Below, in pieces: positions 6,883 through 55,497 of a stretch of DNA of 64,000 bases (positions within the stretch are counted from its first letter, which is position 1; each line of letters starts with the position of its first letter). Below the pieces are notes generated by a model. That model was not told the DNA's origin. It searched no databases and worked only from the letters and a program-made list of their open reading frames with translations. The stretch lies in contig CP068257.2 in NCBI GenBank assembly GCA_009914755.4, positions 12,192,001 to 12,256,000 of the forward strand, written 5' to 3'. Made by a program: the position numbers and the translations under genes. The stretch comes from the human T2T-CHM13v2.0 reference genome, Homo sapiens.

Positions 6883-7640
6883 GGTTTAACTGGCTCATGT
6901 TTCTGCAGGCTGTAAAGGCAGCAAGTGGCTTCTGCTTCTGGGAGGACTCAGGAAGCCTCCCAATCATACCAAAAGGCCAAGTGACAATGAGATGTTCCAT
7001 ATGGCAGGAGTAAGAAGAAGATACAGAGAAGAAAGAGGTGCCACACCCGGTTATACAACCAGATCTCATGAGAACTCACTATCAGAAGATCAGCCTCAGG
7101 AAGATTAACCAATGGTGAAGGATCCGCCCGCACCACCCCTCGCTGTTTCCAGGCGGAAGCCTCCTGCAGAGGCAGAACCTCTTGGAGAACCTCTACCAGC
7201 GCAGTGCAGAAGGAAAATATGAGCTTGTAGCCCCCACACAGGAGGCCACCATCCTCCAGACAGGAGATTGATAAACCCACCAACAGCTTGCACTCTCTGC
7301 GTGGAAAAGCTACAGGCACTCAACACCAGCCCAGCCCATGAGAGCAGCCATGGGGGCTACACCCTGCAAAGCCACAGGTGCACTGCCCTAGTAGAGACTT
7401 TCCATGAGCCTCTGCCTCTGCAGCAGGCTACTTCCCCCTCCTACTACCCACCACCCTATCACCACCCTACTAACAACGTACTCCTCACCCTACCAACCCC
7501 TTTTCCTTCCACCCCCGGCCCCCGAACATCCATGATTAAATCACCTCCAGCCAGGCCCCACCTCCAATATTAAGGATTACAATTCACATGAGTTTTGGTA
7601 AAGAAACACAGCCAAATCATATTATTCTGACCCTGATCCC
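6840..7640 (-). mobile_element. Representative LTR-like portion of a monomer: MaLR-type LTR (reverse complement) interrupted by a ~400 bp insertion; an equivalent segment starts each monomer
   Basis: 'gaggtttaactggctcatgtttctgcaggctgtaaaggcagcaagtggcttctgcttctgggaggactcaggaagcctcccaatcataccaaaaggccaag...cagatctcatgagaactcactatcag...ggtgaaggatccgcccg' runs to the insertion at 7125-7520, then 'catgattaaatcacctccagccaggccccacctccaatattaaggattacaattcacatgagttttggtaaagaaacacagccaaatcatattattctgaccctg'. Confidence 0.7.
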
Positions 7641-9994
7641 CACAGTCTCATGTCCTTCTCACAGAGAAAAATATATTCATGCCTTTTCAAAAGTTTCCAG
7701 AAGTCTTAACTCATTCCAACATTAACTCAAATGTAAAAAAATCAACATCTCATCTGAGACAAGTCTACAGTACCTTTTGCCTATGAGTCCCTGAATTTAA
7801 AAGGATGTTCTTTTCTTTCAAGGTACAATAATGGTACAGGCTTTGGGTAAGATTTTTCAATCCAAAGGGAAGAAATTTCCCAGGAAGAAAACACAAATGG
7901 GACCACAGGCCCAATACAAGTCCAAAACCCAGAAGGCCAGTATCCATTCAATCTTACAGCTCCAAAATCATGAAGAGAACTCACTATCACAAGGACAGCA
8001 ATAAGGAGAGTGTTTAATCATTTGTGAAGCATCCGTCCCCCACCCCCAATTTTCACTGCTCACCCGCACCATAAATCCCCCAGTCTCCCTAAGCCCCATC
8101 TTCCAACCCCCACCCTCCACCGTGATTAAATCACCTTCCTCCAGGCCCCACCTTTAACATTCCGATGACAATTCCACATGAGTTTTGGTAGAGACACAGA
8201 GCTGAATTTTATTATTCTGTCCCTGGCTCCCCAAATCTCATGTCCTTCTCACATTGCAAAATACAATGATGCCTTCCCTACAGTCCCCCAAAATCTTATA
8301 TCATTACAGTATTTATACAAATGTTGAAAGCTTAAAGTCTCATCTGACACAAGGCTACAGTTTCTTAGGCCCATGAGCCTCTGAAATATAACGCAAGTTA
8401 ACTACTTCCAAGGTACAATGCTTGTACAGGCATTGGGTAAGCATTCCCAGCCAAAAGGAAGAACGTTGCCGGAAAAAAACAAAACACAGATAGGACTTAC
8501 CGGCCCCATGAAACTACAAACCCAGAAGGCCAGTCATTCCATCCTACAGTTCCAAAATCACCCTTTTTGAAACCTTGTCCCACATCCAGGGCACAGGGGT
8601 GTGAGGGCTGGGCTTCCAAGGCCTTGGGCAGCTTGGCACCTGTGGCTTTGCAGGGTTTATGCCCCACAGCTGGCCTCATGGGCTCGGCTGGTGTTGAGTG
8701 CCTGTGACTTTTCCTCACTGAGAATACAAGTTGTTGGGGGGTCTATGAATCTGGGGTCTGCATGATGGTGGCCTCCAGTGTGGGGGCTCCAACCCCATGT
8801 TTTCCTTCTGCACTGCCCTAGTAGAAGTTTCATATAAGGCTCTGCCTTTTTGGGGTGCTTTTGCCTGGACACCCAGGCATTTCCATACATCTTCCAAAAT
8901 CTATAGAGAGGTTCCGAAGCCTCTAGTCTCATGCTCCGTCCGCCAGTGGCTTAACACTATGAGGAATTTACCAAGGCTTCTAGCCAGCACCCTCTGTAGC
9001 AGTGACCCAAGCTGTAGCTGTGCATCTTTCAATCATGGCTGGAGCTGGAGCTGGAGCTGGAGATGGAGCTGGAGATGGAGCTGCAGGGATGCAGGCAGCA
9101 GTGTCCTGAGGCTCCACACAGAGGGGGTCATGGAACTGGCCCAGGAAACTGTTCTTCTCTCCTAGGCCCCAGGGCCTGTAACAACAAGGGCTGCTGCAAA
9201 GGTCTCTGAAATGCCTTCAAGGCCTTTTCCCTATTGTCTTGTCTATTAGCACTGGGCTCCTTTTCATGCAAGTTTCCGAAGCCTTCCTCAATTTTCCCCC
9301 TGAAAATCAGCTTTTCTTTTGGACCACATGGCCAGGCCGCAAATTTTCCAAACTTTTGAGTTCTGTTTCTCATGTAATGTAAGAGTTGGGACTCATTTAA
9401 TGTAAGTCTCATCCAGAGGTCATTTCCTCCATCCCACATAAGAGCACAGGCTGTTCAATGGAAACAGGACAACTCTTGAGCTTTGCTGCTCAGTTCATTC
9501 CACCAGATACTCAGTAAATCATCACCCTCAAGTTCAAAGTTTCACAGATCTCCAGGGCGAGGTCACCGTGCAGCCACGTTCTTTGCTAAGGAAACAAAAG
9601 TAACTTTGACTTCTGTTCCCAGTAAGTGCTTCATTTTCATCTGAGACCTTCTAAGTCGGGCTTTCACTGACCATTTTCCTGTGAGCCTTCTGATCACAAA
9701 TGTTTAACAATTCTTTACAAAGATCCAAACTTTCATTCATCTTCTTGTCTTCGAAGCCCTCCAAACTCTTCCGACCTCTGTATGCTACTCCCTTCTGAAC
9801 CTGCTTCTACATTATCACTATCTTTGCCACAGCCTGGCAATGTGGTAAAGGAAAACAAGTCCATTTTCAGGGGGAAAATTCATGAAGCCTTCACATACTT
9901 GAATGAAAAGAAGCTGAGTGCTGATTGCCACGACAATGACATTTAATAGTTCCACTTTGCACTACTAATTTTCTCTATGATCATAAAGAAAAGA
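6883..9994. repeat. Monomer m1 (A-type), first monomer of HOR copy 1
   Basis: It is bounded by 'ggtttaactggctcatg' at 6883 and 'ggtttaattggctcatg' at 9995. Its ORFs recur at 27115-28811 and 46671-48355. Confidence 0.9.
9041..9082. repeat. (GGAGCT/GGAGAT)7 microsatellite in the A-type monomer of copy 1
   Basis: 'ggagctggagctggagctggagatggagctggagatggagct'. Confidence 0.9.
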
Positions 9995-12900
9995 GGTTTA
10001 ATTGGCTCATGATTCTGCAGGCTGTAAGGAAACACAGTGGCTTCTGAATCTGGGAGGACTCAGGATGCCTCCCAATCATACCAGAATGTCCAGGGGCAAT
10101 GAGATGATTCATGTGGCAGGAGTAGGCACAAGACAGAGAGGAAAGAGGGCCACACCCTATTATACAACCAAATCTTATGTGAACTCACTATTACAAGGTC
10201 AGCATCATGAAGATGGTGCTTAAACATTGATGAAGGAACAACCACCCACACCCAACTCCCACTGTTTCCAAACAGAAGCCTGCTGCACAGGCAGAGCCTC
10301 TTGGAAAACCTGTACTAGGGCAGTGTGGAAGGAAAATATGAGCTTGGAGCCCCCACAGAGATGGCCACCACCCTCCAGACCCCAGATTCACAGACCCATC
10401 AGCAGCTCACACCCTCTGTGGAAAAGCTACAGGTTTTTCCAAACCTCAACACCAACCCAGCCCATGAAAGCATCTGCAGGGGCTCAACCCTGCAAAGCCA
10501 CAGGTGGATTGCCCTAGTAGAGGTTTTCCATGAGGCTTTGCCTCAGCAGCAGGCTACTCCCCCTTCCTACTACCCCCAACCCTCCCACCATTCTACTGCC
10601 AGCCTACTCCTCCCCACCCCAACCAACCATTTTGTGATACCCTACCTTGTTTTAACCTGATCGACTCTCCCTTAGCTGAGGGAGCCAGGCAGACTCCATC
10701 TTGGCTGTTTCACTTGCAGCCCCTTACACACATCCCTTCCTCAAGGACATAACTTGTGCAAGCTGACTCCCAGCACATCAACGAATGCAATTACTGACAA
10801 GATACTGTGGCAAGCTATATCCACAGTTCCCAGGAATTCACCCCGTTGATGGTACCTAAAACCCCCGCATTTCTGTCCAGTTGATAGCACCCAAAGCCCC
10901 CACCTCTATCACCTTTTGATGGATTTAAAGTCCCTGCACCTGGAACTGTTTGTTTTCCTGTAGCCATTTACCTTTTTAACTTTTTTGCCTGTTTTGCTTC
11001 TGTAAGATTGCTTCAACGAGGCCTCCCCTCCCCTTTCTAAACCAAAGTATAAAAGAAAATCTAGCCCCTTCTTCCGGGCCGAGAGAATTTTGAGCACTAG
11101 CGCTCTCTCAGTCGCTGGCAATAAAGGTCTCCTGAAGTCGTCTCATAGTGTGGCGTTTCTCTACCACTCGCTTGGTTACAACCCTTTTCCTTCCACCCCC
11201 CAACCCACCTCCAATCCATGATTAAATCATCGCCCCCAGGCCCCACTTTCAACATTTGGAATTACAATTCCACCTGAATTTTTTTAGGGACTCACAGCCA
11301 AACCATATTATTCTTACCCTGATATCCCAGAATCTCATGTCCTTATCACAGAGCAAAATACAATCATGCCTTTTCAAAAGTTCCAATAGCCTTAACTAAT
11401 TCCAAGTGTAAAAAGTTCAAAGTCTCATCTGAGACAAGGCTACTGCCCCTTCTGCCTATGAGTCCCTGAATTTAAAAGAGATTTCTTTTCTTTCAAGGTA
11501 CAATGATGGTAGAGGTATTGTGTAAGCTTTCTCAATCCAAAGGGAAGAAATTTCCCAGAAAAATAACACAAATGGGCCCACAGGCCCAGTGCAAGTCCAA
11601 AACCCAGCAGGACAGTATTCACTCAATCTCACAGCTCAAAAATCATTAAGAGAACTCATCGTCATGCGGAAAGCATTAAGGAGACAGTGTTTACCCATTT
11701 GTGAAGAATCTGTTCCCCCGCCCTCATCTTTCACTCCCATCCACAAAATAATCTCTCCCGTTCTCCCCACACCCCTACCTCCAACACCCACTCTTCTCCA
11801 TGATTAAATCACCTCCCACCAGTTCCCACCTTTAACATTCCCCCCTAAAATTCCACATGAATATTGGTAGAGACACAAATTCAAATCATATCATTCTGGC
11901 TCTTGCTCCCCAAATCTTGTATCCTTGTCACACTGCAAAATACATTGATGACTTCTTTACTGTCCCCCAAAGACTTAACTCATTCCAGCATTTACTAAAA
12001 TGTACAAGGACTTACAGACCCCATGCAAGTCAAAAACCCAGCAGGCCAGTCATTGAATCCTACAGCTCCAAATCATCTTTTCTGAATGGACATCTCTCAT
12101 CCGATCACAGGAGTGTCATGGCTGGGCTCCCAAGGCCTTGGGCAGCTCTGCACCTGTGGCTGTGCACGGTCTATCCCCCACAGCTGCCCTCATGGGCTGG
12201 GCTGGTGTTGAGTGCCTGTAGCTTTTCCAAACTAAGGTTGGAAAAGCCAGCTGTTGGTGGGTCTATGAATCTGGGGTCTGGAGAATGGTGCCTCCATATT
12301 TAGGGACCCCAGCCCTATATTATCCTTCTGTACTGCCCTAGTAAAGGTTTCCCATGAGGCTCTGCCTCTTGGAAAAGCTTCTACCTGAAAACCCAGGTTT
12401 TTCCGTAGATACTCTGGAGTCTAGACAAAGGCTCCCAAGCCTCTAGTTTTGTTCTCTGTGCACCTGCTGGCTTAACACTATGTGGAAGCCACCAAGGCTT
12501 GAAGCTTACACCCCTGAAGCGTGATGCAAGCTGTACCTGTGCATCTTTCAGCCATGGCTGGAACTAGAGCTGCAGGGATGCAGGCAGCAGTGTCTTGAGA
12601 CTGCACATAGAGGGGGGTCATGGAACTGGCCTAGGAAACCATTCTTCTCTCCGAGGCCCCAGGGCCTATGATAGCAAGGGCTGCTGCAAAGGTTTCTGAA
12701 ATGGCTTCAAGGCCTTTTCCCTATTGTCTTGGCTATTAGCACTGGGCTCCTTTTCATGCAAATTTCTAAAGCCTTCCTCAGTTTTCCCCTGAAAATCAGC
12801 TTTTCTTTTTGACCATTTGGCCAGGCTGCAAATTTTTGAGTTCTGTTTCTCATTTAATATAAGAGTTGGGACTCATTTAATGTAAGATCCATCCAGATGT

Positions 12901-13496
12901 CATTTTCTCGGTCACACATAAGGGCACAGGCTGTTTGATACAGACAGGACACCCCTTGAGCTTTGCTGTCCAGAAGTTCATTCCAACAGATACGCAGTAA
13001 GTCATCACCCACAAGTTCAAAGTTTCACAGATCTCCAGGGCAGTGTCACTGTGCATCCACGTTCTTTGCTACAGCAAAACAAAAGGCACCTTGGCTCCTG
13101 TTTGCAGTAAGTTCCTCATTTTCATCTGAGAGCTTCTCAATCTGATCCTTACCGTCTATTTTCCTATGAGTCTTCTGATCACAAGTATTTAACAACTTTT
13201 TACAAAGATCCAAACTTTCCCTCATCTCCCTGTCTTTGAAGTCCTCCAAACTCTCCAGAACTCCATCTGCTACCCCCTTCTGAACCTGCTTCTACATTTT
13301 CAGCTATCTTTGTCACAGTCTGGCAGTGTGGTAAAGGAAGACAAGCCCATTTTCTTGGGAAAAATTCAAGGGGCTTCAGATACTTGAATGAAAAGAAGCT
13401 GAGTGCTGATTGCCAAGACATTAGGGAGAAGGCCTTGAAGACATTTAATAGATCCACTTTGCAGTAATAATTTTCTCCATAATCATAAAGAAAAGA
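9995..13496. repeat. Monomer m2 (B-type)
   Basis: ORFs 10191-10391(-) and 10909-11121(-) recur at 29530-29730, 30239-30451, 49075-49275 and 49782-49994. Confidence 0.9.
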
Positions 13497-16361
13497 GGTT
13501 TAATAGGTTAATGATTCTGCAGGCTGTAAGGAAGCATAGTGGCTTCTGCACCTGACAGGACTCAGGAAGCTTCCCAATCATACCAGAATGTCAAGGGGCA
13601 AGGAGATGTCTCATATGGGAAGAGTAGGAGCATGACAGAGAAAGGAAACAGGTGTCATGTCCCATTATACAAGCAGATCTCATGAGAACTCACTATCACA
13701 AGGTCAGCATCAAGAAGATGGTGCTTAAACATTGGTGAAGGATCCGCCCCACACACCCAACTCTCACTGTTTCTAGGCAGAAGCCTCCTACAGATGCAGA
13801 GCCTCTTGGAAAACCTCTATTATGGAAGTGCAGAAAGAAAATATGGGTTTGGAGTCCCCACACAGGTGGCCACCAAACTCCAGATCCCGGATTCATAGAC
13901 CCACTAGCAACTCACGCACTTAGTGTGGTAAAGCTACAGGCCCTCAATACCAGCCCACCCCACGAGAACAGCTGAGGGGCTAAAACCTGCAAAGCCACAG
14001 GTGCACTGCCCTAGTAGAGGTTTTCCACGAGGCTTTGCCTCTGCAGCAGGCTACTCCCCCTTCCTACTACCCCCCACCCTCCCACCACCCTACTGCCAAC
14101 CCACTCCTCCCAATCCTACCCATCCCTTTTACCTTCCACCGCCACCAACTTCCTGTCCATAATTAAGTCACTTGCTTCAACATTAGGGATTACAATTCCA
14201 CATGAGTTTCATAGGGACACACAGGAAAACCATATAATTCTGACCCTGATATTCCAGAATCTCATGTCCTTATCACAGAGCAAAATACCATCATGACCTC
14301 TCAAAAGTTTGCAAAAGTCTTAACTCATTCCAAATGTAAAAAATTCAGTCTCATCTGAGACAAGGCCACAGTCCCTTCTGTCTATGAGTCCCTGAATTTA
14401 AAACGGAGTTCTTTTCTTTCAAGGTACAATGATGGTAGAGACATTGTGTAAGCTTTCTCAGTCCAAAGGGAAGAAATTTCCCAGAAAAATAACACAAATG
14501 GGCCTACAGGCCCAATGCAAGTCCAAAACCCAGCGGGACAGTATTCACTCAGTCTCTCAGCTCCAAAATCATCAAGAGAACTCACTATCATGTGAACAGC
14601 ATTAAGGAGAGCGTGTTTATCCATTTGTGAAACATCCGCCCCCCACCCTCATCTTTCACTCCCACCCACAAAAAAATCTCTTCTATTCTCCCCACTCCCT
14701 TACCTCCAACCCCCATGCTTCTCCATGATTAAATCCCCTCCCACCAGGCCCCATTTTTAACATTCCCCATTATAATTCCACATGATTTTGGTAGGGATGC
14801 AGAGTCAAATCATATTATTCTGACCCTGGCCCCCGTATCTCATGTTCTTCTCACACTGCAAAATACCATGATGCCTTCTCTACAGTTTCCCAATCTCTTA
14901 ACTCATTCCAGCATTTACTGAAATGTCCAAAGCCCAAAGTCTCTTCTGAGACAAGGCTGGGGTCTCTTCTGCCCCTGAGCCTCTGAAATACAAAGTAAGT
15001 TAACTACTACCAAAGTACAGTGATTGTACACACATTGGGTAAGTATTCCCAGCCAAAAGGAAGAAATTAGCCAGAAAGAAGAACAAAACACAGATGGGAC
15101 TTACAAACCCCATAGGAGTCAAAAATCCAACAGCCAGTCATTGAATCCTACAGTTCCAAACCATTTTTTTTGAATCCAGATCCCACATTCAGAGCACAAG
15201 GGTATGAGGCCTGGGCTCCCAAGGCCTTGGGCAGCTCTGCACCTGTGAAGTTGCAGGGTCTAACCTCCACAGTTGTCCTCATGGGCTGGGCTGATGTTGA
15301 ATACCTATAGGTTTTCCACAATGAGGGTGCAAGCTGCTAGTAAGTCTATGAATCTGGTGTTTGCAGAATGGTGCCTCCCTGTATTGGGGTTCCAACCCTA
15401 TATTTTCCTTCTGTACTGCCCTAGTAAAGGAGGCTCTGCCTCTTGGAAAAATTTCGACCTGGACACCCAACTTTTTCCATACATACTCTGGAGTCCAGAC
15501 AAAGGATCCCCAGCCTCCAGTTTTGTGCTCTGAGCACCTGCTGGCTTAACACTATGTGGAAGCCACCAAGGCTTGCAGTTTGCACCCTCGGAAGCAGTGA
15601 CCCAGGCTGTACCTGTGCATCTTTCAACCATGGCTGGAGCTGGAGCTTCAGGAATCCAGCCAGCAGTGTCCTGAGGATGGACATAGCAGCGGGGTCATGG
15701 GGCTGGAGAAGGAAACCATTCTTTTCTCCCAGGCCTCAGGGCCTGTGATAGCAAGGGCTGCTGAAAAAGTCTCTGAAATGCCTTCAAGGCCTTTTTAACA
15801 TTGTATTGGCTATTAGCACTGAACTCCATTTTATAAACATTTCTGAAGCCTTCTTGAACTTTCCCACTGATAATAAGCTTTTCTTTTTGACCACTTGGCC
15901 AGGCTGCAAATTTTCACAACTTTTAATCTCTCCTTGTCATTTAAATATGTTTCACCTTGAGGTCATTTCTTTGGTCACATATTTTCATGTGAGACCTTCT
16001 AAGCCTGGTGGTCACTGTCCATCCTTATGTCACCTTCTTAATTATAACTATTTAACAAGTCTCTACACTGATCCAAACTTTTCCTCATCTTCCTGTCTTC
16101 TTCCAAGACCTCTAAACTCTCCAACCTCTGGCCATTACACACTTCTTAACCTGCTTCTACATTTTCAGCTACATGTGTCACAGCCTGGCAATGTGGTAAA
16201 AGAAGAAAAGTCCATTTCAGGAGAAAAATTAATGCAGGCTTTAGACGTTTGCCTGAAAAGAAGCTGAGTGCTGATTGCCATGACAATAGGGAAAAGGTCT
16301 TGAAGGCATTTCATAGCTCCACTTTACAGCATTAATTTTCTGTATAATCAGAAAGAAAAGA
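13497..16361. repeat. Monomer m3 (C-type; ~190 bp shorter than its copy-2 counterpart)
   Basis: ORFs 13696-13896(-) and 14382-14624(-) recur at 33036-33221 and 33707-33949. It shows an internal deletion near 15981 relative to 35291-35485. Confidence 0.9.
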
Positions 16362-19300: not shown

Positions 19301-19780
19301 TTCAGTTTCACAGATCTCCTGGAAAGGATCAATGTGTAGTCAATTACTTTGCTAAGGCAAAACAAAAAAACCTTGGCTCCTCTTCCCAGTGAGTACTTCA
19401 TTTTCACCTGAGATCTTGTAAGCCTGACATTCACTGTCCATCCTTATGTTAGCCTTTTAATCACAACTATTGAACAAGTCTCTGCAATGGTCCAAACTTT
19501 CCCTCATCTTCCTGTTTTCTTCCAAGATCTCCGAACTCTCTAACCTCTGGCCATTACCTAATTCAGAACCTGCTTCTACACTATCAGGTATCATTTTCGC
19601 AGCCTGGCAATGTGGTAACAGAAGAAAAGTCTATTATCAGGGGGAAACATCAAGATGGTATCCAATATTTGCATTGAAAAAAGCTCAGTGCTAATAACCA
19701 AGAGATTGGGGGAAGGCCTAGAAGTCATTTCATAGCTTCACTTCGCAGCATTAATTGTCTGTATGTACATAAAGAAAAGA
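16362..19780. repeat. Monomer m4 (D-type; carries an extra LTR-end sub-repeat)
   Basis: The landmark 'atgattaaatcacc' occurs three times in this monomer, at about 17030, 17590 and 17930. ORFs recur at 36299-38814. Confidence 0.9.
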
Positions 19781-22700: not shown

Positions 22701-23052
22701 TTCACTGTCCATCCTTCTGCCAGCCTTTTAATCACAACTATTTAACAAGTGCCTACAATGGTCCAAATTTCCCTTCATCTCCCTGCCTTCTTTCAAGATC
22801 TCCAAACTCTCCAACCTCTGGCTGTTACCCACTTCTGAACCTGCTTTACATTTTCAGCTATCTTTGTTGCAGCCTGGCAATGCAGAAGAAAAAGAAGTCC
22901 ATTTTCAGGGGGAAAACTTCAGGAAGCCTTCAGATATTTGCATTAAAAAGAAGTCCAGTGCTAATAGCCAAGAAGATGGGGAAATGTCATTGAAGATATT
23001 TCATAGCTCCACTTCGCAGTACTTTATTTTCTGCATGATCATAACGAAAAGG
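19781..23052. repeat. Monomer m5 (E-type)
   Basis: ORFs 19994-20185(-), 20406-20630(+) and 21086-21292(+) recur at 39561-39752, 40003-40197 and 40652-40855. Confidence 0.9.
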
Positions 23053-42300: not shown

Positions 42301-42611
42301 TTTAACAAGTGCCTACAATGGTCCAAACTTTCCTTCATCTCTCTGTCTTCTTTCAAGATCTCCAAACTCTCCAACCTCTGGCTGTTACCCACTTCCGAAC
42401 CTGCTTTACATTTTCAGCTATCTTTGTTGCAGCCTGGCAATGCAGAAGAAAAAGAAGTCCATTTTCAGGGGGAAACTTCAAGAAGCCTTCAGATATTTGC
42501 ATTAAAAAGAAGTCCAGTGCTAATAGCCAAGACGATGGGGAAATGTCATTGAAGATATTTCATAGCTCCACTTCGCAGTACTTTATTTTCTGTATGATCA
42601 TAATGAAAAGG
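39346..42611. repeat. Monomer m11 (E-type)
   Basis: It is homologous to 19781-23052. Confidence 0.9.
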
Positions 42612-45600: not shown

Positions 45601-45788
45601 GCCTGGCAATGTGGTGAAAGGAGAAAAGTCCATTTTCAGGGGGAAAATTCAAGAAGGCTTCATATATTTCCATATAAAAGAAGCCAAATGCTAATGGTAA
45701 AAAAAAAAAGGGGGGGGGGGGAAACCTTGAGGGCATTTCATAGCTCCAGTCTACAGTACAAATTTTCTGTAATATTATTTTTTAAAGA
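42612..45788. repeat. Monomer m12 (F-type), last monomer of HOR copy 2
   Basis: It is homologous to 23053-26235 and 52372-55497. Confidence 0.9.
45699..45721. repeat. A11 followed directly by G12 at the position of the poly(A) tract in the other HOR copies
   Basis: 'ggtaaaaaaaaaaagggggggggggggaaacc' where the other copies have a pure A-run. Confidence 0.9.
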
Positions 45789-48700
45789 GGTTTAATTGGC
45801 TCATGGTTTTGCAGGATGTAAAGGCAGCAAGTGGTTTCTGCTTCTGGGAGGACTCAGGGAGCCTCCCAATCATACCAAAAGGCCAAGTGACAATGAGATG
45901 TTCCATATGGCAGGAGTAGGAAGAAGACACAGAGAGGAAAGAGGTGCCACACCAGGTTATACAACCAGATCTCATGAGAACTCACTATCAGGAGATCAGC
46001 ATCAGGAAGATTAACCAATGGTGAAGAATCCACCCACACCACCGCCTACTGTTTCCAGGCAGAAGCCTCCTGCAGAGGCAGAATCTCCTGGAGAACCTCT
46101 ACAAGTGCAGTGCAGAAGGAAAATATGGGCTTGGAGCTCCCACACAGGAGGCCACCATCCTCCAGACTGCAGATTCATAGACCCACCAACAGCTTGCACT
46201 CTCTGCATGGAAAAGCTACAGGCACTCAACACCAGCCCAGCCCATGAGAGCAGCCATGGGGGCTACACCCTGCAAAACCACAGGTGCACTGCCCTAGTAG
46301 AGACTTTCCATGAGCCTCTGCCTCTGCAGCAGGCTACTCCCACTTCCTGCTACCCACCACCCTCTCACCACCCTACTAACAACATACTCCTCACCCTACC
46401 CACCCCTTTTCTTTCCACCCCCGGCCCCCTCCCATCCATGATTAAATCACCTCCAGCCAGGCCCCACCTCCAACATTAAAGATTACAATTCACATGCGTT
46501 TTGGTAAAGAAACACAGCCAAATCATATTATTCTGACTCTGATCCCCACAGTCTCATGTCCTTCTCACAGAGCAAAATATATTCATGCCTTTTCAAAAGT
46601 TTCCAAAAGTCTTAAATCATTCCAACATTAACTCAAATGTAAGAAAATCAACATCTCCTCTGAGACAAGTCTACAGTACCTTTTGCCTATGAGTCCCTGA
46701 ATTTAAAAGGATGTTCTTTTCTTTCAAGGTACAATAATGGTACAGGCTTTGGGTAAGCTTTTTCAATCCAAAGGGAAGAAATTTCCCAGGAAGAAAACAC
46801 AAATGGGACCACAGGCCCAGTACACGTCCAAAACCCAGAAGGCCGGTATCCATTCAATCTTACAGCTCCAAAATCATGAAGAGAACTCACTATCAAAAGG
46901 ACAGCAATAAGGAGATTGTTTAATCATCTGTGAAGGATCTGCCCCCCAACCCCCAATTTTCACTCCTCACCCGCACCATAAATCCCCCATTCTCCCTACG
47001 CCCCATCTTCCAACCCACACTCTCCACCGTGATTAAATCACCTTCCACCAGGCCCCACCTTTAACATTCCGAGGACAATACCACTTGAGTTTTGGTAGAG
47101 ACACAGAGCTGAATTTTATTTTTCTGTCCCTGGCTCCCCAAATCACATGTCCTTCTCACATTGCAAAATACAATGATGCCTTCCCTACAGTCTCCTAAAA
47201 TCTTATGCCATTATAGCATTTATACACATGTTCAAAGCTTAAAGTCTCATCTGGCACAAGGCTACAGTTGCTTAGACCCATGAGCCTCTGAAATATAAAG
47301 CAAGTTAACTAATTCCAAGGTACAGTGCTTGTACAGGCATTGGGTAAGCATTCCCAGCCAAAAGAAAGAATTTTGCCAGAAAAAAACAAAACACAGACAG
47401 GACTTACTGGCCACATGAAACTCCTAACCCAGAAGGCCAGTCATTCAATCCTACAGCTGCAAAATCACCCTTTTTGAAACCCTGTCCCACATCCAGGGCA
47501 CAGGGGTGTGATGGCTGGGCTTCCAAGGCCTTGGGCAGCTTAGCTCCTGTGGCTTTGCAGGGTTTATGCCTCTCGGCTGCCCTCAGGGGCTCGGCTGGTG
47601 TTGAGTGCCTGTGACTTTTCCCCACTAAGGATACAAGTTGTTGGGGGTCTATGAATCTGGGGTCTGCATGATGGTGGCCTCCAGTGTGGAGGCTCCAACC
47701 CCATGTTTTCCTTCTGCACTGCCCTAGTAGAAGTTTCATATAAGGCTCTGCCTTTTTGGGATGCTTTTGCCTGGACACCCAGGCCTTTCCATACATCTTC
47801 CAAAATCTATAGAGAGGTTCCCAAGCCTCTAGTCTCATGCTCCGTCCACCAGTGGCTTAACACTATGAGGAAGTTACCAAGGCTTCTAGCTGGCACCCTC
47901 TGTAGCAGTGACCCAAGCTGTAGCTGTGCATCTTTCAGTCATGGCTGGAGCTGGAGCTGGAGCTGCAGGGATGCAGGCAGCAGTGTCCTGAGGCTGCACA
48001 GAGAGGGGGGGCATGGAACTGGCCCACGAAACCATTCTTCTCTCCTAGGCCCCAGGGCCTGTAACAGCAAGGGCTGCTGCAAAGGTCTCTGAAATGCCTT
48101 CAAGGCCTTTTCCCTATTGTCTTGTCTATTAGCACTGGGCTCCTTTTCATGCGAGTTTCTGAAGCCTTCCTCAATTTTACCCCTGAAAATCAGCTTTTCT
48201 TTTTGACCACATGGCCAGGCTGCAAATTTTCCAAACTTTTGAGTTCTGTTTCTCATGTAATGTAAGAGTTGGGACTCATTTAATGTAAGTCTCATCCAGA
48301 GGTCATTTCCTCCATCACACATAAGAGCACAGGCTGTGTGATGCAGACAGGACACCTCTTGAGTTTGCTGCTCAGTTCATTCCACCAGATACTCAGTAAA
48401 TCATCACCCTCAAGTTCAAAGTTTCACAGATCTCCAGGGCGAGGTCACCGTGCAGCCACGTTCTTTGCTAAGGTAACAAAAGTAACTTCGACTTCTGTTC
48501 CCAGTAAGTGCTTCATTTTCATCTCAGACCTTCTAAGTCAGGCTTTCACTGACCATTTTCCTGTGAGCCTTCTGATCACAAGTGTTTAACAATTCTTTAC
48601 AAAGATCCAAACTTTCATTCATCTTCTTGTCTTTGAAGCCCTCCAAACTTTCCTGACCTCTGTCCGCTACTCCCTTCTGAACCTGCTTCTACATTATCAC

Positions 48701-48876
48701 TATCTTTGCCACAGCCTGGCAATGTGGTAAAGGAAAACAAGTCCATTTTCAGGGGGAAAATTCTTGAAGCCTTCACATACTTGAAAGAAAAGAAGCTGAG
48801 TGCTGATTGCCAAGACAATGACATTTAATAGTTCCACTTTGCACTACTAATTTTCTCTATGATCATAAAGAAAAGA
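45789..48876. repeat. Monomer m13 (A-type), first monomer of HOR copy 3
   Basis: ORFs 46671-46853(-) and 47404-47838(-) match 27115-27297 and 27896-28282 at a +19.55 kb offset. Confidence 0.9.
47947..47964. repeat. (GGAGCT)3 microsatellite in the A-type monomer of copy 3
   Basis: 'ggagctggagctggagctgcaggg' sits at the position equivalent to 9041-9082 and 28391-28420. Confidence 0.9.
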
Positions 48877-51800
48877 GGTTTAATTGGCTCATGATTCTGC
48901 AGACCATAAGGAAACATAATGGCTTCTGAATCTGGGAGGACTCAGGAAGCCTCCCAATCATATCAGAATGTCCAGGGGCAATGACATGATTCATGTGGCA
49001 GGAGTAGGCACAAGACACACACAGGAGAGAGGACCACACCCTATTATACAAACAGATCTCATGAGAACTCACTATCACAAGGTCAGCATCATGAAGATAG
49101 TGCTTAAACACTGATGAAAGAACAACCACCCACCCCCAATTCTTGCTGTTTCCAAACAGAAGCCTGCTGGACAGGCAAAGCCTCCTGGAAAACTTCTACC
49201 AGGGAAGTGTGGAAGGAAAATACGGGCTTGAAGCCCCCATGCAGATGGCCACCAACCTCCAGACCCCAGATTCATAGACCCACCAAGAGCTCACACCCTC
49301 TGTGGAAAAGCTACAGGCACTCAACAACAGCCCAGCCCGTGAGAGCAGCTGCACGGGCTAAACCCTGCATAGCCACAGGTGCTCTGTCCTAGTAGAACTT
49401 TTCCATGAGTTTTGCCTCTCCAGCAGACTACTCCCCCTTCCTGCTACCCCCACCCTCCCACCACTCTACTGCCAGCCTACTCCTCCCCACCCTAACCAAC
49501 CCTTTTGTGATACCCTACCTTGTTTTAACCTGGTCGACTCTCCCTTAGCTGCGAGAGCCAGAAAGACTCCATCTTGGCTCCTTCACTTGCAGCCCCTTAC
49601 CCACCCCCCTTCCTCAAGGACTTAACTTGTGCAAGCTGACTCCCAGCACATCAAAGAATGCAATTACTGATAAGATACTCTGGCAAGCTATATCCATAGT
49701 TCCCAGGAATTCGCCCGGTTGATAGTAACCAAAACCCCCGCATTTGTGTCCAGTTGATAGCACCCAAAGCCCCCACATCTATCACCTTTGGATGGATTTA
49801 AAGCCCCTGCACATGGAAATGTTTGTTTTCCTGTAGCCATTTATCTTTTTAACTTTTTTGCCTGTTTTGCTGCTGTGAGAGTCCTTCAGCGAGGCTCCCC
49901 CTCCCCTTTCTAAACAAAAGTATAAAAGAAAATCTAGCCCCTGCTTCCAGGCCAAGAGAATTTTGAGCACTAGCGGGCTCTCAGTTGCCGGCAATAAAGG
50001 TCTCCTGAAGTCGTCTCATAGTGTGGCGTTTCTCTACAACTCACTCGGTTACAACCCTTTTCCTTGCACCCTCGACGACCTCCAATCCATGATTAAATCA
50101 TCTCCCCCAGGCCCCACTTTCAACATTTGGAATTACAATTGCACCTGAATTTTTATAGGGACACACAGCCAAACCGTATTATTCTGACCCTGATATTCCA
50201 GAATCTCATGTCCTTAACACAGAGCAAAATACAATCATGCCTTTTCAAAACTTCCAACAGCCTTAACTCATTCCTGTGTAAAAAGTTCAAAGTCTCATCT
50301 GAGACAAGGGTACTGTCCCTTCTGCCTATGGGTTCCTGAATTTAAAAGAGATTTCTTTTCTTTCAAGGTACAATGATGGTACAGGTGTTGTGTAAGCTTT
50401 ATCAATCCAAAGGGAAGTAATTTCCCAGAATACACAAACGGGACCGCAGGGCAAATGCAAGTCCAACACCCAGCAGGACACTATTCACTCAATCTCACAG
50501 CTCAAAAATCATCAAGAGAACTCACTATCATGCGGACAGCATTAAGGAGATAGCGTTTACCCATTTGTGAAGAATCTGCCCTCCCACCCTCATCTTTCAC
50601 TCCCACCCATAAAATAATCTCTCCCATTCTCCCCACACCCCTACCTCCAACACCCACTCTTCTCCATGATTAAATCACCTCCCACCAGGTCCCACCTTTA
50701 ACATTCCCCACGACAATTCCACATGAATATTGGTAGAGACACAGAATCAAATCATATTATTCTGGCTCTTGCTCCCCAAATCTTGTATCCTTGTCACGCT
50801 GCAAAATACAATGATGACTTCTCTACTGTCCCCCAATGACTTAACTCATTCCAGCATTTACTGAAATGTCCAAGGACTTACAGACCCCATACAAGTCAAA
50901 AACCCAGCAGGCCAGTCATTGAATCCTACAGCTCCAAATCATCTTTTCTGAATGGACATGTCCCATCCAGATCACAGGTGTGTCAAGGCTGGGCTCCCAA
51001 GGCCTTGGGCAGCTCTGCACCTGTGGCTGTGCATGGTCTATCCCCCACAGCTGCCCTCATGGGCTGGGCTGGTGTTGAGTGCCTGTAGCTTTTCCAAACT
51101 AAGGTTGGAAAAGCCAGCTGTTGGTGGGTCTATGAATCTGGGGTCTGGAGAATGGTGCCTCCATGTTTAGGGACTCCAGTCTTATATTCTCCTTCTGTAC
51201 TGCCCTAGTAAAAGTTTCCCATGAGGCTCTGCCTCTTGGAAAAGCTTCTGCCTGAACACCCAGGTTTTTCCATACATACTCTGGAGTCTAGATGCAGGCT
51301 TCCAAGCCTCTAGTTTTGTTCTCTGTGCAGCTGCTGGCTTAACACTATGTGGAAGCCACCAAGGCTTGGAGCTTGCACCCCTGAAGCAGTGATGCAAGCT
51401 GTACCTGTGCATCTTTCAGCCATGGCTGGAGCTGGATCTGCAGGGATGCAGGCAGCAGTCTCCTGAGGCTGCACACAGAGGGGGTCATGGAACTGGACCA
51501 GGAAACCATTCTTCTCTCCTAGGCCCCAGGGCCTGACAGCAAGGGCTGCTGCAAACATCTCTGAAATGCCTCCAAGACGTTTTCCCCCAGTGTCTTGGCT
51601 ATTAGCACTGGCCTCCATTTTATGCAAGTTTCTGGAGCCTTCATGAATTTTCCCCCTGAAAATCAGCTTTCCTTTTTAACCACTTGACCAGGCTGCAGAT
51701 GTTCCAAACTTTTGAGCTCTGCTTGTCATTTAAGTATAAGTTCCAACTTGAGGTCATTTCCTCGGTCACACATAACCTCGGTCACACATGAAAGCACAGG

Positions 51801-52371
51801 CTGTTTGATGCAGACATGCCCCCACCCTTGTGCTATGCTGCCTAGAAGTTCTTTCCACCAGATATGCACTAAATCTTCACCCTAGAGTTCAAAATTTCAC
51901 AGATCTTGAGGGCAAGGTCGCCCTGCAGCCATGTTCTTTGCTACAGCAAAACAAAAGCTAACCTTGGCTCCCGTTCCCAGTAAGATCCTCATTTTCATCT
52001 GAGACCTTGTAAGCCTGGCCTTCACTGTCCATCCTTCTGTCAGCCTTTCAATCACAACTATTTAACAAGTGCCTACAATGGTCTAAACTTTCCTTCATCT
52101 CTCTGTCTTCTTTCAAGATCTCCAAACTCTCCAACCTCTGGCTGTTACCCACTTCCGAACCTGCTTTACATTTTCAGCTATCTTTGTTGCAGCCTGGCAA
52201 TGCAGAAGAAAAAGAAGTCCATTTTCAGGGGGAAACTTCAAGAAGCCTTCAGATATTTGCATTAAAAAGAAGTCCAGTGTTAATAGCCAAGACGATGGGG
52301 AAATGTCATTGAAGATATTTCATAGCTCCACTTCGCAGTACTTTATTTTCTGTATGATCATAATGAAAAGG
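48877..52371. repeat. Monomer m14 (hybrid: B-type 5' part fused to E-type 3' part)
   Basis: ORFs 49782-49994(-) and 50952-51170(+) match B-type 30239-30451 and 31409-31627. Downstream, 51310-51627(-) and 51600-52371 match E-type 41757-42611. Confidence 0.85.
51495..51535. other. Recombination or deletion junction between B-type and E-type monomer sequence
   Basis: Upstream, 'ctgcacacagagggggtcatggaactgg' matches B-type 31,900 ('ctgcacatagaggggggtcatggaactgg'), not E-type ('ctgcaaacagcagcagggtcatggggctgg'). From 'ctcctaggccccagggcctgacagcaagggctgctgcaaacatctctgaaatgcctccaagac' onward it matches E-type 41,750-41,820, not B-type ('ctccgaggccccagggcctatgatagcaagggctgctgcaaaggtttctgaaatggcttcaaggcc'). 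Confidence 0.8.
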
Positions 52372-55300
52372 GGTTTAATTGGCTCATGGTTCTGCAGGCT
52401 GTAAAGAAAGCATAGTGGCTTCTGCTTCTGGGAGGACTCAGGAAGCCTCCCAATCACAGCAGTAGGAAAACTGCAATGAAATGTTTCATACAGAAGGAGT
52501 AGGAGCAAGGCTGAGAGAGGAAAGTGGTGCCACACCATCCTGTAACCAGATCTCATGAGAACTCACTATCACTAGGTCAGCATCAAGAAGATGGTGTTTA
52601 ACCATTGGTGAAGGATCCGCCCCCCAACACAGCTCCACCCCCTACCGTTCCAGACAGAAGCCTGCTGCAGAGGCAGAGGCTCTTGGAAATCCTGTACTAT
52701 GGCAGTGCAGAAGGAAAATAAGGGCTTTGAGTGACTATGCAGGAGGCCACCAGCCTCTAGACCCCAGATTCATAGACCTACCAACAGTTCACACCCTCAG
52801 TATGGAAAAGTGATAGGCACTCAACACCAGCCAAGCCCATGAGAGCAGCCATGGGGCCTAAAGCCTCCAAAGCCACAGGCGCACTGCCCTGGTAGAGGTT
52901 TTCCATGAGCCGCTGCCTCTGCAGCAGGCTACACCCCCTTCCTACTACCCACCACCCTCCCACCACCCTACAGCCAGCCTACTCTTCCCCACCCTACCCA
53001 CCCCTTTTTTCTTCCACCCCTACCCCTCCCATTCATGATTAAATAATCTCACACCAGGCCTCACCTCCAACATTTGGGATTACAATTCCACATGAGTTTT
53101 TCCAGGGGCACATAGCCAAATCATATTATGCTGACCTTGACCCCCCCAAATCTCATATCCTTCTCACAGAATAAAATACAATCGTGTCTTTTCAAAGTTT
53201 CCAAAAGCCTTAACTCATTCCCACATTAACTCAAATATAAAAAGTTCAAAGTCTCATCTGAGACAAGGCTACAATCTCTTCTGCATATGAGTCCCTGAAG
53301 TTAAAAGGGTGTTCGTTTCTTTCAAGGTACAATGATGGTACAGGTATTGGGTAAGCTTTCTCAATCCAAAGGGAAGAAATTTCCAAGAAAAATAACACAA
53401 ATGTGACCACAGGCCCAATGGACATCCAAAATCCTGCAGGTCAGTGTTCATTCAATCTCACAGCTCCAAAATCATGAAGAGAACTCACTATCAGAAGGAC
53501 GGCATTAAGGAGATGTTGTTTAACCGTTTGTGAAGGATGCACCCCCACCCCTGCCTTACACCCCCAACCCCACCACAATCCCCTCCAACCCTACCCACCA
53601 CCCAGTCCACCCCAAACCTCCCCACCCCGCCAACCATCCAACCTCCACTCTCCATCATGTTTAAACCACCTTCTACCAGCCCCCACCTTTAACATTTCCC
53701 ATTAACCTTCTGCTTGAACTTTGGTAGAGACAGAGAGCCAAAACATATTATTCTGTCCCTGGTCCCCCAATGCTCATGTCTCTCTCACATTGCAAAATGC
53801 AATGATGCCTTCCCTAGAGTCTCTCCAATCTTAACTCATTCCAGCATTTACTCAAATGCCCAAAGCCCAGAGTATTATCTGAGACAAGTCTACACTCCCT
53901 TCTGCCCATGAGCCACTGATTTGTAAAGCAAGTTTATTACTTCCAAGGTAAATGATTGTACAGGCAATGGGTAAGCAGTCCCAGGCAACAGAAAAAAAGA
54001 AAATTGCTAGAAAGAAGCACAAAACACAGATGGGACTCATAGGATACATAAGTGTCCAAAACCCAGCAGGCCAATCACTCAATCCTACAGCTCCAAAATC
54101 ATCGTTTTTGAATCCTTGTCCCACATCCATGGCACAGGGCTGTGAGGGCTGAGCTCCCAAGGCCTTGGGCAGATCTGACCTGTGGCTTGGCAGCGTTCAG
54201 CCTCTGCAGCTGCCTCTCATGGACAGGGCTACTGTTGAGTGCCCATAGATTTTCCACACTGAGGGTGCAAGCTGTTTGTAGGTCTATGAATCTGGGGTTT
54301 GGACATTGATGCCTCCCTCTGTGGGGGCTTCAACCCTATAAGTCTCTTCTTTGCTCCCCTAGTAGAGGTTCCCCATGAGGTTCTGCCTCTTGGAAAAGCT
54401 TCTTCCTGGACATCCAGGATTTTCTGTACATCTTCTGGAGTCTAGACAGGAGCTCCCAAGCCTCTAGTCTCTTTCTCTGTGCACCTACTGTCTTAACACT
54501 ATGTGGAAACCATCAAGGCTTTGAGCCACCTCTGAAGCAGTGACCCAAGCTGTACCTGTGCATCTTTCAGCCATGACTGGTGCTGGAGCTGCAGGGATGC
54601 AGGCAGCAGTGCCCTGTGGTTGAGCACAGCAGCAGAGCCATGGGACTGGCCCAGGAAACCATTCTTCTCTTCTCTCCTAGGCCCCACGGTCTGTGACAGC
54701 AAGGGCTGCTGCAGAGGTCTCTAAAATACCTTCAAGGCCAGTTTCCCACTGTCTTGGCTGTTTGCACTGGGTTCCTTTTTATGCAAATAACCTAAGCCTT
54801 CTTGAATTTTCCCCCTTAAAATCGGCTTTTCTTTTTGACCACTTGGCCAGGCTCCAAATTTTCCAAATTTTAGATCTCCACTTGAAGTTCCAACTTGAAG
54901 TTATTTCTTAGGTCACACATAAGAACACAGGCTGTTCAATGCAGACAGGACACCTCTTGTGCTATGCTGCCTAGATGTTCATTTCACCAGATACATCCTA
55001 AATCATCACCCCCAAGTTCATAGTTTCACAGATCTCCAGGGCAGGGTCCCTGTGCTGCCACGTCCTTTGCTAAGGCCAATCAAATGTAATATTGGCCCCT
55101 GTTCGTAGGAAATTCCTCATTTTCATCTGAGAACTTTTAAGTCTGGACGTCAGTGTTTACCCTTTTCTCAGCCTTCTGATCACAAGTATTTAACAAGTCT
55201 CTATAGTGGTCCAATATTTTCCTCATCTTGTTGTCTTCTAAGCTTTCCCAACTCTTCCTACCTCTGTCTTTTACCGACTTCTGAACCCGGTTCTACATTG

Positions 55301-55497
55301 TCAGCTATCTTTATCAGAGCCTGGCAATGTGATAAAAGAGAAAAGTCCATTTTCAGGGGGAAAATTCACAAAGGCTTCAGATATTTCCATGAAAATAAGC
55401 TGAGTGCTGGTTGCCAAGACAAAGGGGAAAGGGCCTTGAAGGCATTTCATGGCTCCACTTCACAGCACTAATTTTCTGTATGATCATAAAGAAAAGA
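52372..55497. repeat. Monomer m15 (F-type)
   Basis: ORFs 52320-52556(-), 52778-52966(-) and 53269-53451(-) match 42560-42796, 42997-43206 and 43508-43690 at a +9.76 kb offset. Confidence 0.9.

What the first reader, a model, noticed from the sequence alone, without database searches (positions are those of the whole stretch)
6883..55497. Higher-order repeat: six diverged monomer types (A-F) recur as a ~19.5 kb unit that is much more homogeneous than its constituent monomers
ORF translations recur at constant offsets of +19.35 kb (copy 1 to copy 2) and +19.55 kb (copy 2 to copy 3), with only a few substitutions per 60-70 residues. Adjacent monomers inside one HOR are far more diverged and differ in length (2.9-3.5 kb). 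This is the same structural pattern as the higher-order repeats of centromeric alpha satellite, but at 20-fold larger scale and on an LTR-derived unit. It implies recent amplification or homogenisation of an old monomer family.
Basis: seen in the sequence. Interest (0 to 1): 0.75.

Follow-up and report, generated by a model that had tools for sequence, protein, structure and literature searches.

The report
Known MaLR-retrotransposon megasatellite with six-monomer repeat
This is a real but already published structure: a roughly 52 kb tandem array of ~3.2 kb units built from rearranged MaLR retrotransposon pieces, in which a block of six units was re-duplicated by unequal crossing-over, matching the human pericentromeric "LTR array" described in 2008.

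Summary
Window 3865-56180 is a tandem array of 16 full and one partial ~3.2 kb monomers (2.87-3.50 kb). Six monomer types recur with a period of 19.35-19.56 kb. Same-type monomers are 93-96% identical; different types are 79-84%. HOR1 vs HOR2 is 94.5% and A vs B is 82.8%. An NJ tree groups monomers by type (100% bootstrap) and never by copy.

Three corrections:
- The repeated block runs from about 5150 to 53870, not 6883-55497.
- The third copy is not collinear. At ~51445 a B monomer switches into the end of an E monomer, a 9.78 kb three-monomer deletion, so M15 is F-like, not C.
- "Recent" holds only in relative terms. Copies differ by 4-7% (K2P 0.055).

The mechanism is visible in the sequence. 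The F monomers are hybrids of the two edge monomers M15 and M0. A 548 bp solo-LTR-like insertion with a target duplication sits at the same site in all three B monomers.

Warburton et al. 2008 (PMC2588610) described this family: MaLR "LTR arrays" with ~3.5 kb monomers, a 6-monomer HOR and one LTR6A per HOR. [quoted passage not shown] I found no sign of function. Verdict: already known, low interest.

The parts
3865..56180 (-). Whole tandem array of MaLR-derived ~3.2 kb monomers: 16 full and 1 partial. The retroelement sense strand is the window's minus strand.
   Evidence: Self-BLAST; anchor mapping; C-rich plus strand throughout, GC skew -0.07 to -0.37; CpG o/e 0.13.
56181..57650 (-). Degenerate tail of the array: two further decayed partial units, 69-81% to the anchor.
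3865..6900 (-). M0, the left edge monomer. Its first ~1.3 kb is B-like or unique (82-85%). From ~5150 onward it is the parent of the 3' part of the F monomers (93-97%).
5150..24535 (-). HOR copy 1 (M0-late, A=M1, B=M2, C=M3, D=M4, E=M5, F-early of M6). Boundaries are placed at the crossover point, +/- 50 bp.
24536..44095 (-). HOR copy 2 (F-late of M6, A=M7, B=M8, C=M9, D=M10, E=M11, F-early of M12).
44096..53870 (-). HOR copy 3, rearranged: F-late of M12, A=M13, B-early of M14, then a jump into E-late, then F-early (5' part of M15).
24500..24570 (.). Crossover point inside hybrid monomer M6: M15-like 5' part, M0-like 3' part. The equivalent point in M12 is about 44,060-44,130. The parental points are about 5,150-5,200 in M0 and 53,820-53,870 in M15.
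   Evidence: 150 bp sliding identity: M15 96-98% then 69-89% (mostly 72-86%); M0 76-87% then 90-97% (mostly 93-97%).
51445..51520 (.). B/E recombination junction in M14. It removes B-late, C, D and E-early (9.78 kb, three monomers) from the third HOR.
   Evidence: identity to M8 falls from 95-100% to 77-88%, while identity to M11/M5 rises from 69-85% to 94-100%.
53871..55515 (-). Unique 3' part of the right edge monomer M15, ~79% to every other monomer.
55516..56180 (-). M16, a partial monomer, 80-84% to all types and not a member of the HOR.
10633..11180 (+). Solo-LTR-like insertion in B monomer M2: 548 bp, TG...CA ends, TATAAAA and AATAAA in plus orientation, flanked by ACCATTT / ACCCTTT. 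Presumed to be the LTR6A reported for this family.
   Evidence: All 14 non-B monomers show the empty site.
29963..30510 (+). The same insertion at the same site in B monomer M8.
49506..50053 (+). The same insertion at the same site in B monomer M14.
7145..7381 (.). Example in monomer A (M1) of the inverted internal-region fragment. Its partner is 8636-8872 (237 nt, 80% complementary). An equivalent pair is found in every monomer.
7506..8560 (.). Example in M1 of the internal direct duplication (3' end of the MaLR internal region plus the 5' part of the LTR, two copies about 590 bp apart, 74%). It is present in every monomer.
17562..17890 (.). D-type-specific extra segment, a third copy of the internal direct repeat. 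The M10 equivalent is 37081-37456, which includes a 26 bp C-rich tandem repeat at 37373-37475.
3015..3864 (+). Degenerate 15 bp minisatellite (CACTGACCAGGTCCY) abutting the left end of the array. The same motif recurs at 61081-61161.
57921..58431 (-). Frameshifted SNX18/SNX9-type BAR-domain pseudogene fragments, with an inverted partial copy at 58809-58967 on the plus strand.
   Evidence: Pfam PF10456, E=1e-15 / 7e-9 / 1e-7; homologues; inverted repeat, 90.6%.

Best explanation
The region is a non-coding megasatellite of the MaLR 'LTR array' family.

Origin of the array (inferred). One rearranged MaLR retrotransposon composite arose first. It contains the internal region, a duplicated block of 3'-internal sequence plus 5'-LTR, an inverted internal fragment and the 3' part of the LTR. 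This composite was amplified at the DNA level into a tandem array of at least 8 monomers, which then diverged to about 80% identity. A foreign solo LTR inserted into one monomer, the ancestor of type B.

Origin of the higher-order repeat (shown by the junction sequences). Unequal crossing-over between two monomers lying six units out of register, M15-like and M0-like, duplicated a 19.4 kb block and created a hybrid junction monomer, F. A further exchange gave a third block. A later unequal exchange three units out of register, between a B and an E monomer, deleted 9.78 kb from the third block.

Since then the copies have drifted apart by 4-7% with heavy CpG decay, as expected for neutral, methylated pericentromeric DNA.

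The structure corresponds to the 21q11.2 LTR array of Warburton et al. 2008, or to a very close orthologue or paralogue of it.
For: Periodicity and identities.

Clustering by type with 100% bootstrap, and 0% by copy.

Hybrid F monomers whose two halves match the two edge monomers, which are themselves only 80% alike.

B/E hybrid with a sharp switch at 51,445-51,520.

A 548 bp TG...CA insertion with a target-site duplication at the identical site in M2, M8 and M14, with an empty site in all other monomers. This proves descent of the three B copies from one monomer.

All 16 monomers share the same internal direct and inverted duplications, so the composite predates amplification.

No sign of function: no ORF above 231 aa, no Rfam family, CpG o/e 0.13.

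Flanking SNX18-like pseudogene fragments of a multicopy family, recovered from contigs of ENA metagenome assemblies.

Paralogous contigs (one of them, L034, from a human skin metagenome) carry type-specific monomers at 93-96% and share the left flank.
Against: No transposable-element library or eukaryotic genome database was available. The MSTA / THE1 / LTR6A labels and the chromosome assignment therefore rest on the paper and on structural concordance, not on a direct alignment.

My remembered THE1B LTR matches only weakly: 68-70% over ~100 nt, plus short 84-100% stretches.

None of the 38 metagenome-derived contigs is more than 96% identical to the array. The locus itself was therefore not recovered, and the species is not proven.

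Divergence is not uniform. In the 5' part of B, copy 1 carries ~6.5% private differences against 1.5-1.9% for copies 2 and 3, while the A region is star-like. A simple two-step duplication therefore needs added gene conversion or a different order of events.

The target duplication (7-8 bp) is longer than the 4-6 bp I would expect for an ERV integrase; that expectation comes from my own knowledge.
Confidence: 0.9

Rival explanations
1. Concerted evolution by gene conversion: every sixth monomer was homogenised without any block duplication, so the apparent HOR is a conversion pattern laid over an old 16-monomer array.
For: Divergence between copies is patchy: 88-99% in 500 bp windows, and unequal private differences. 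This suggests that some conversion has occurred.
Against: Conversion would have to copy a 548 bp foreign insertion with its target duplication into exactly every sixth monomer. It would also have to reproduce type-specific indels and create hybrid junction monomers whose parents sit at the array edges. Collinearity over 19.4 kb with only 372 gap columns is what block duplication predicts.
Confidence: 0.04
2. Assembly artefact: a shorter array was erroneously expanded, or reads from paralogous arrays on other chromosomes were stitched together.
For: The family is multicopy and embedded in segmental duplications (PMC2588610). Same-type monomers in other loci are as similar (93-96%) as the copies within the window.
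Against: The copies differ by 4-7% with private indels, so they are not duplicated reads. The junctions are clean homologous switches inside monomers. [quoted passage not shown]
Confidence: 0.02
3. A cluster of independent or nested MaLR retrotransposon insertions rather than DNA-level tandem amplification.
For: The whole array is made of MaLR-like LTR and internal sequence (direct reading; PMC2588610).
Against: Every monomer has the same non-canonical rearranged architecture: a direct duplication, an inverted internal fragment and a second inverted pair at the same relative positions. The units are head-to-tail in one phase, with no target duplications at unit boundaries.
Confidence: 0.01
4. 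A selected functional element: the HOR is maintained because the units encode a protein or a non-coding RNA, or act as a binding platform (DUX4 on MaLR LTRs, or CTCF as at DXZ4/D4Z4).
For: Other macrosatellites have such roles, and DUX4 is known to bind MaLR LTRs (PMC3836709, listed). No Alu was found anywhere in the 64 kb window.
Against: No ORF above 231 aa and no Rfam hit. There are no DUX4 consensus sites in the array and only one in the decayed tail, which is chance level. There is no CTCF core motif. CpG o/e is 0.13 and divergence between copies is 4-7% with a low ts:tv ratio, which looks neutral.
Confidence: 0.03

Closest known systems
MaLR 'LTR array' megasatellite family, specifically the 21q11.2 array (Warburton et al. 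2008, BMC Genomics 9:533, PMC2588610)
   Same: ~3.5 kb monomers made of MaLR LTR and internal fragments in both orientations. HOR of six monomers. One foreign solo LTR (LTR6A in the paper) per HOR. About 53.8 kb and 16 units. [quoted passage not shown] Embedded in pericentromeric duplicated DNA. The authors also proposed unequal crossing-over.
   Different: There is no demonstrable difference. I could not align to the reference, so identity of locus and species is inferred. This analysis adds the exact breakpoints (F hybrid at ~24.5 kb and 44.1 kb, B/E hybrid at ~51.45 kb) and identifies the two edge monomers as parents of the F hybrid.
Alpha-satellite higher-order repeats of primate centromeres
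   Same: Diverged monomer types in a fixed order recur as a multimer that is more homogeneous than its monomers. Both are generated by out-of-register unequal exchange.
   Different: Here the monomer is ~3.2 kb instead of 171 bp. There are only about 2.5 copies rather than hundreds to thousands. Copy identity is 94-96% rather than typically 95-100% with continuing homogenisation. The origin is a retrotransposon, and there is no evidence of any centromere role.
Classical human macrosatellites (D4Z4, DXZ4, RS447, TAF11-like, CT47)
   Same: Kilobase-scale (3-5 kb) tandem units with copy-number change by unequal exchange.
   Different: Those units are GC- or CpG-rich and/or carry an ORF or CTCF sites, and their copies are nearly identical. 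This array is CpG-depleted (o/e 0.13), has no ORF and no CTCF motif, and its primary monomers are only ~80% alike.

Membership tests
MaLR LTR-array megasatellite (Warburton 2008) | Tandem head-to-tail monomers of about 3.5 kb | tested here: met
   16 full monomers of 2865-3502 bp in one phase, plus partial units at both ends.
MaLR LTR-array megasatellite (Warburton 2008) | Monomer composed entirely of MaLR pieces (MSTA/THE1 LTR, MSTA-int) in both orientations | tested here: inconclusive
   The 'both orientations' part is shown: 205-244 nt inverted internal fragments in nearly all monomers. LTR-like motifs are readable on the minus strand. A remembered THE1B LTR gives only weak hits. No Dfam or RepeatMasker was available to name the subfamilies.
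MaLR LTR-array megasatellite (Warburton 2008) | Higher-order repeat of six monomers in the large arrays (13q11, 18p11, 21q11) | tested here: met
   Period 19.35-19.56 kb, equal to six monomers. Type clades have 100% bootstrap.
MaLR LTR-array megasatellite (Warburton 2008) | One foreign solo LTR inserted in one monomer of each HOR | tested here: met
   A 548 bp TG...CA element with a TATA box, AATAAA and a target duplication in M2, M8 and M14 only.
MaLR LTR-array megasatellite (Warburton 2008) | That inserted LTR is LTR6A | not testable with these tools
   No transposable-element consensus library was available. The length and full-length LTR hallmarks are compatible.
MaLR LTR-array megasatellite (Warburton 2008) | Embedded in pericentromeric segmental duplications shared among chromosomes | tested here: inconclusive
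   The flank carries SNX18-like pseudogene fragments of a multicopy family. Paralogous contig L023 shares the left flank and first monomer at 90-94%. The chromosomal position cannot be read from the window.
21q11.2 array specifically | [quoted passage not shown] | tested here: met
   3865 to ~57650 is 53.8 kb including the decayed tail. There are 16 full units. A 9.78 kb B/E deletion lies in the third HOR, as described in the paper. Orthologues in other apes could share these features, so the species is not proven.
Alpha-satellite-type homogenised HOR array | 171 bp AT-rich monomers | tested here: not met
   Monomers are 2.9-3.5 kb with 46-47% GC.
Alpha-satellite-type homogenised HOR array | Many HOR copies kept near-identical by ongoing homogenisation | tested here: not met
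   Two full copies and one rearranged copy, 93.8-96.2% identical. K2P is 0.042-0.072.
Gene- or CTCF-bearing macrosatellites (D4Z4/DXZ4 type) | ORF, CpG island or CTCF sites in each unit | tested here: not met
   Longest ORF 231 aa and not conserved in position. CpG o/e 0.13. No CTCF core motif. No Rfam family.

The most novel reading that the evidence does not exclude
The window may not be the published 21q11.2 array. It could be an undescribed paralogue (for example on an acrocentric short arm resolved only in T2T assemblies) or a non-human ape orthologue. In that case the same six-monomer HOR with the same three-monomer deletion would predate the dispersal or speciation, and the array would preserve, at its two edges, the intact parental monomers of the founding unequal crossover. 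That would be a rare directly readable record of how a higher-order repeat is born. A more remote possibility is that the complete absence of Alu from 64 kb reflects an insertion-refractory or purging chromatin state specific to these arrays.
Probability: 0.12. Interest if true: 0.3.

Novelty: already known. Interest (0 to 1): 0.1.

Why it matters
The array is a clean textbook-style example of how a higher-order repeat arises outside centromeres. Both founding junctions (the F hybrid and the B/E hybrid) and the parental edge monomers are still readable, and a solo-LTR insertion serves as a lineage marker. But the family, its six-monomer HOR, the LTR marker, the chromosome-specific deletions and the unequal-crossover explanation were all published in 2008. 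The finding opens no new question. Its practical value is limited to annotation: this block should be labelled as a MaLR LTR array rather than as many separate LTR elements. It may also serve as a marker for pericentromeric duplication history.

Tried and rejected
1. Giant repetitive gene. Rejected: only four ORFs of 150 aa or more in 64 kb, the longest 231 aa.

2. Bacterial or phage origin. Not pursued after reading the sequence. CpG o/e is 0.13, MaLR-like LTR motifs are present, and there is an SNX18-type pseudogene.

3. Species identification by SINEs. Remembered AluY and B1 consensus sequences gave no hit anywhere, so this was uninformative about species.

4. Exact-protein look-ups. The 231 aa array ORF is not on record. 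The 92 aa SNX18-like ORF is found on one 561 bp ENA metagenome contig that is 99.6% identical, which is suggestive of host contamination but not decisive.

5. Metagenome scan with the LTR-insertion junction 24-mer: no hits.

6. Metagenome scan with a conserved monomer 24-mer: 38 contigs, all 84-96% identical to the window. These are useful as paralogues, but none is the locus itself. Some may be chimeric low-coverage assemblies, so I did not build a history on them.

7. Functional motifs: DUX4, CTCF and Rfam were all negative.

8. TRF finds nothing at monomer scale because its period limit is 500.

9. Later literature. Two further full-text searches found no newer treatment of these arrays beyond the 2008 paper.
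Full report
**What is there**

The window has a 46-47% GC, strongly C-rich block (on the plus strand) from about 3.9 to 57.6 kb, between flanks of 55-57% GC. A self-BLAST shows that everything between 3865 and 56180 is similar to everything else at 77-79%. On top of that lie long collinear matches at offsets of about 19.3-19.5 kb and 38.8 kb.

Mapping a 300 bp anchor gives monomer starts at 3865 (M0, cut at its 5' side), 6901, 10013, 13515, 16380, 19799, 23071, 26255, 29350, 32840, 35889, 39365, 42630, 45807, 48895, 52390 and 55516 (M16, partial). Two decayed units follow, reaching about 57650. Monomer lengths are 2865-3502 bp.

**Check of the observation**

In a MAFFT alignment of all monomers, same-type pairs are 93.1-95.9% identical and different types 79.2-83.5%. 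K2P distance is 0.055 (range 0.042-0.072) within types and 0.225 (0.19-0.25) between types.

| Comparison | Identity |
|---|---|
| 6883-26235 vs 26236-45788 (HOR1 vs HOR2) | 94.5% (92.7% counting gaps) |
| HOR2 vs HOR3 up to the junction | 96.2% |
| HOR1 vs HOR3 | 93.8% |
| A vs B | 82.8% |

An NJ tree with 100 bootstraps groups A (M1, M7, M13), B (M2, M8, M14), C (M3, M9), D (M4, M10), E (M5, M11) and F (M6, M12) at 100% each. Groupings by HOR copy appear in 0% of replicates. The higher-order repeat is therefore real and the stated refutation criterion is not met.

**Corrections to the observation**

- A 500 bp scan shows that HOR-level identity begins inside M0 at about 5,150, not at 6883.
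- The copy 1 to copy 2 offset changes from about 19,325-19,354 to 19,509-19,567 at 15,982. M3 lacks about 185-200 bp that M9 and the other monomers retain.
- Collinearity of the third copy stops at about 51,445.
- M14 is a B monomer up to 51,445-51,520 and an E monomer after that. Identity to M8 drops from 95-100% to 77-88%, while identity to M11/M5 rises from 69-85% to 94-100%.
- The next 2.4 kb (51,446-53,870) matches the E-late/F-early junctions of copies 1/2 and 2/3 at 96%.
- From 53,870 to 56,180 the sequence is only ~79% similar to anything else.

**How the HOR arose**

The F monomers M6 and M12 are hybrids. Their first ~1.5 kb is 96-98% identical to M15, the right edge monomer. Their last ~1.7 kb is 93-97% identical to M0, the left edge monomer. 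M0 and M15 are only 80% alike. The switch lies at 24,500-24,570.

This is the signature expected of an unequal crossover between two monomers six units out of register in an ancestral array M0-A-B-C-D-E-M15-M16. Such an exchange duplicates the 19.4 kb block and leaves a hybrid monomer at the junction. Repetition gives the third block. The B/E hybrid records a later exchange three units out of register.

An independent lineage marker supports block duplication. A 548 bp element has TG...CA termini, a TATAAAA box and AATAAA in plus orientation, and a 7-8 bp duplication of the target (ACCCTTT[T]). It sits at exactly the same site in M2, M8 and M14, and all other monomers show the empty site.

A three-way comparison is star-like over the A region, with 2.2-2.6% private differences per copy. 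In the 5' part of B, however, copy 1 has ~6.5% private differences against 1.5-1.9% for copies 2 and 3. Some gene conversion, or a staggered order of events, must be added to the simple model.

At primate neutral rates, a K2P of 0.055 corresponds to roughly 10-25 My. This is my inference from a rate of 1.1-2.2e-9 per site per year. 'Recent' is therefore true only relative to the monomers.

**What the monomer is**

Read on the minus strand, each unit contains the following, in order:
- about 1.6 kb resembling the MaLR internal region;
- the 5' part of a THE1/MST-like LTR;
- a second copy of the 3'-internal plus 5'-LTR segment (direct repeat, ~590 bp spacing, ~72-74%);
- a G-rich stretch;
- a 205-244 nt inverted copy of an internal fragment (72-80% complementary);
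- the 3' part of the LTR, ending in ...GAGCCAATTAAACCTCTTTTCTTTAT.

Nearly all 16 monomers share this architecture. The composite therefore existed before amplification, and the array grew by DNA-level tandem duplication, not by repeated insertion. D-type monomers carry an extra copy of the internal direct repeat and a 26 bp C-rich tandem repeat.

My remembered THE1B LTR consensus matches only weakly. I treat the MaLR label as a lead that the literature confirms.

**Function**

I found no evidence of function:
- no ORF above 231 aa;
- no Rfam family;
- no DUX4 consensus in the array;
- no CTCF core motif;
- CpG o/e of 0.13.

**Surroundings**

The left flank is GC-rich but extremely CpG-poor (o/e 0.08). 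It ends in a degenerate 15 bp minisatellite that abuts the array, and the same motif recurs at 61,081-61,161.

The right flank holds frameshifted fragments of an SNX18/SNX9-type BAR domain (Pfam PF10456) as an inverted pair. Homologues at 83-97% are numerous in metagenome assemblies, and some are labelled as bacterial hypothetical proteins. This is typical of host contamination by a multicopy primate pseudogene family. A 561 bp ENA contig is 99.6% identical to this flank.

**Related sequences elsewhere**

A conserved 24-mer recovered 38 metagenome contigs, including one from a human skin metagenome. They are 84-96% identical to the window and are type-specific. For example, L031, L033 and L016 match A at about 94-96%, L015 matches B at 94%, L024, L032 and L037 match D at 94%, L004 matches E at 94.5%, and L014 spans D-E at 93%.

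Contig L023 shares the left flank and the first part of M0 (90-94%) and then continues as B-late. This paralogue differs by a monomer-level exchange.

The monomer types are thus shared among arrays. The distance between arrays is about the same as the distance between HOR copies here. None of the contigs is the locus itself.

**Comparison with what is known**

Warburton et al. 2008 (PMC2588610) describe 'LTR arrays' as follows:
- a megasatellite family made entirely of MaLR elements;
- ~3.5 kb monomers with MSTA and THE1 LTR and MSTA-int fragments in both orientations;
- 25 arrays on about 9-12 chromosomes;
- the three largest arrays (13q11, 18p11.21, 21q11.2) organised as HORs of six monomers;
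- each HOR marked by a full-length LTR6A;
- chromosome-specific unequal-crossover rearrangements.

[quoted passage not shown] The window matches on every testable point:
- 53.8 kb from 3865 to the end of the decayed tail;
- 16 full units;
- a six-monomer HOR;
- one solo LTR per HOR;

I therefore file the window as that array, or a very close orthologue or paralogue. The caveat is that neither a reference genome nor a transposable-element library could be queried.

**Verdict**

The feature is already known and interest is low.

Noticed in passing
window 1-64000: A BLAST with remembered AluY and B1 consensus sequences found no SINE anywhere in the 64 kb. For primate DNA, where my own knowledge puts Alu density at about one per 3 kb, this is striking. 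Apart from the single solo LTR, no foreign insertion interrupts the ~52 kb array.
   Followed up: partly
window 3015-3864 and 61081-61161: The same degenerate 15 bp minisatellite (CACTGACCAGGTCCY) lies in the same orientation on both sides of the array plus SNX18-like block. On the left it abuts the first monomer directly. The array may have been inserted or duplicated into a minisatellite-bearing sequence.
   Followed up: no
window 57921-58431 (-) and 58809-58967 (+): Frameshifted SNX18/SNX9-type BAR-domain pseudogene fragments arranged as an inverted pair at 90.6%. Many 83-97% paralogues appear as host contamination in metagenome assemblies, and some are annotated as Helicobacter or Nostoc hypothetical proteins.
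   Followed up: partly
window 1832-2112 / 2519-2801 and 59134-59228 / 59383-59477: Two further short inverted repeats in the flanks, at 85% and 92.6%. Their nature is unknown.
   Followed up: no
window 1-3864: The left flank is 57% GC but has a CpG o/e of only 0.08. This is GC-rich, minisatellite-like DNA that is nevertheless fully CpG-decayed.
   Followed up: no
window 10100-12100 vs 29440-31430 vs 48985-50970: In the 5' part of the B monomers, copy 1 has ~6.5% private differences while copies 2 and 3 have 1.5-1.9%. The neighbouring A region is star-like at ~2.4% each. This points to gene conversion or a different duplication order for this segment.
   Followed up: partly
whole array, monomer alignment: The transition:transversion ratio is only about 1.2:1 both within and between monomer types, lower than the ~2:1 usual for mammalian neutral DNA. 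It may reflect exhausted CpG sites or alignment noise.
   Followed up: no
window 37373-37475 (M10) and 17562-17890 / 37081-37456: D-type monomers carry an extra copy of the internal direct repeat. M10 also has a 26 bp C-rich tandem repeat of 4.1 copies.
   Followed up: partly
window 15982 vs 35290-35490: M3 (type C, copy 1) lacks about 185-200 bp that M9 and the other monomer types retain. This causes the shift in the copy 1 to copy 2 offset from 19.33 to 19.51 kb.
   Followed up: partly
loci L002-L039, especially L023 and L027: Metagenome-derived host contigs carry paralogous array monomers at 84-96%, and none reaches 97% or more. L023 joins the left flank and M0-early directly to B-late. L027 runs D-E-F-early and then back into E. 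These are either real recombinant paralogues or chimeric low-coverage assemblies.
   Followed up: partly
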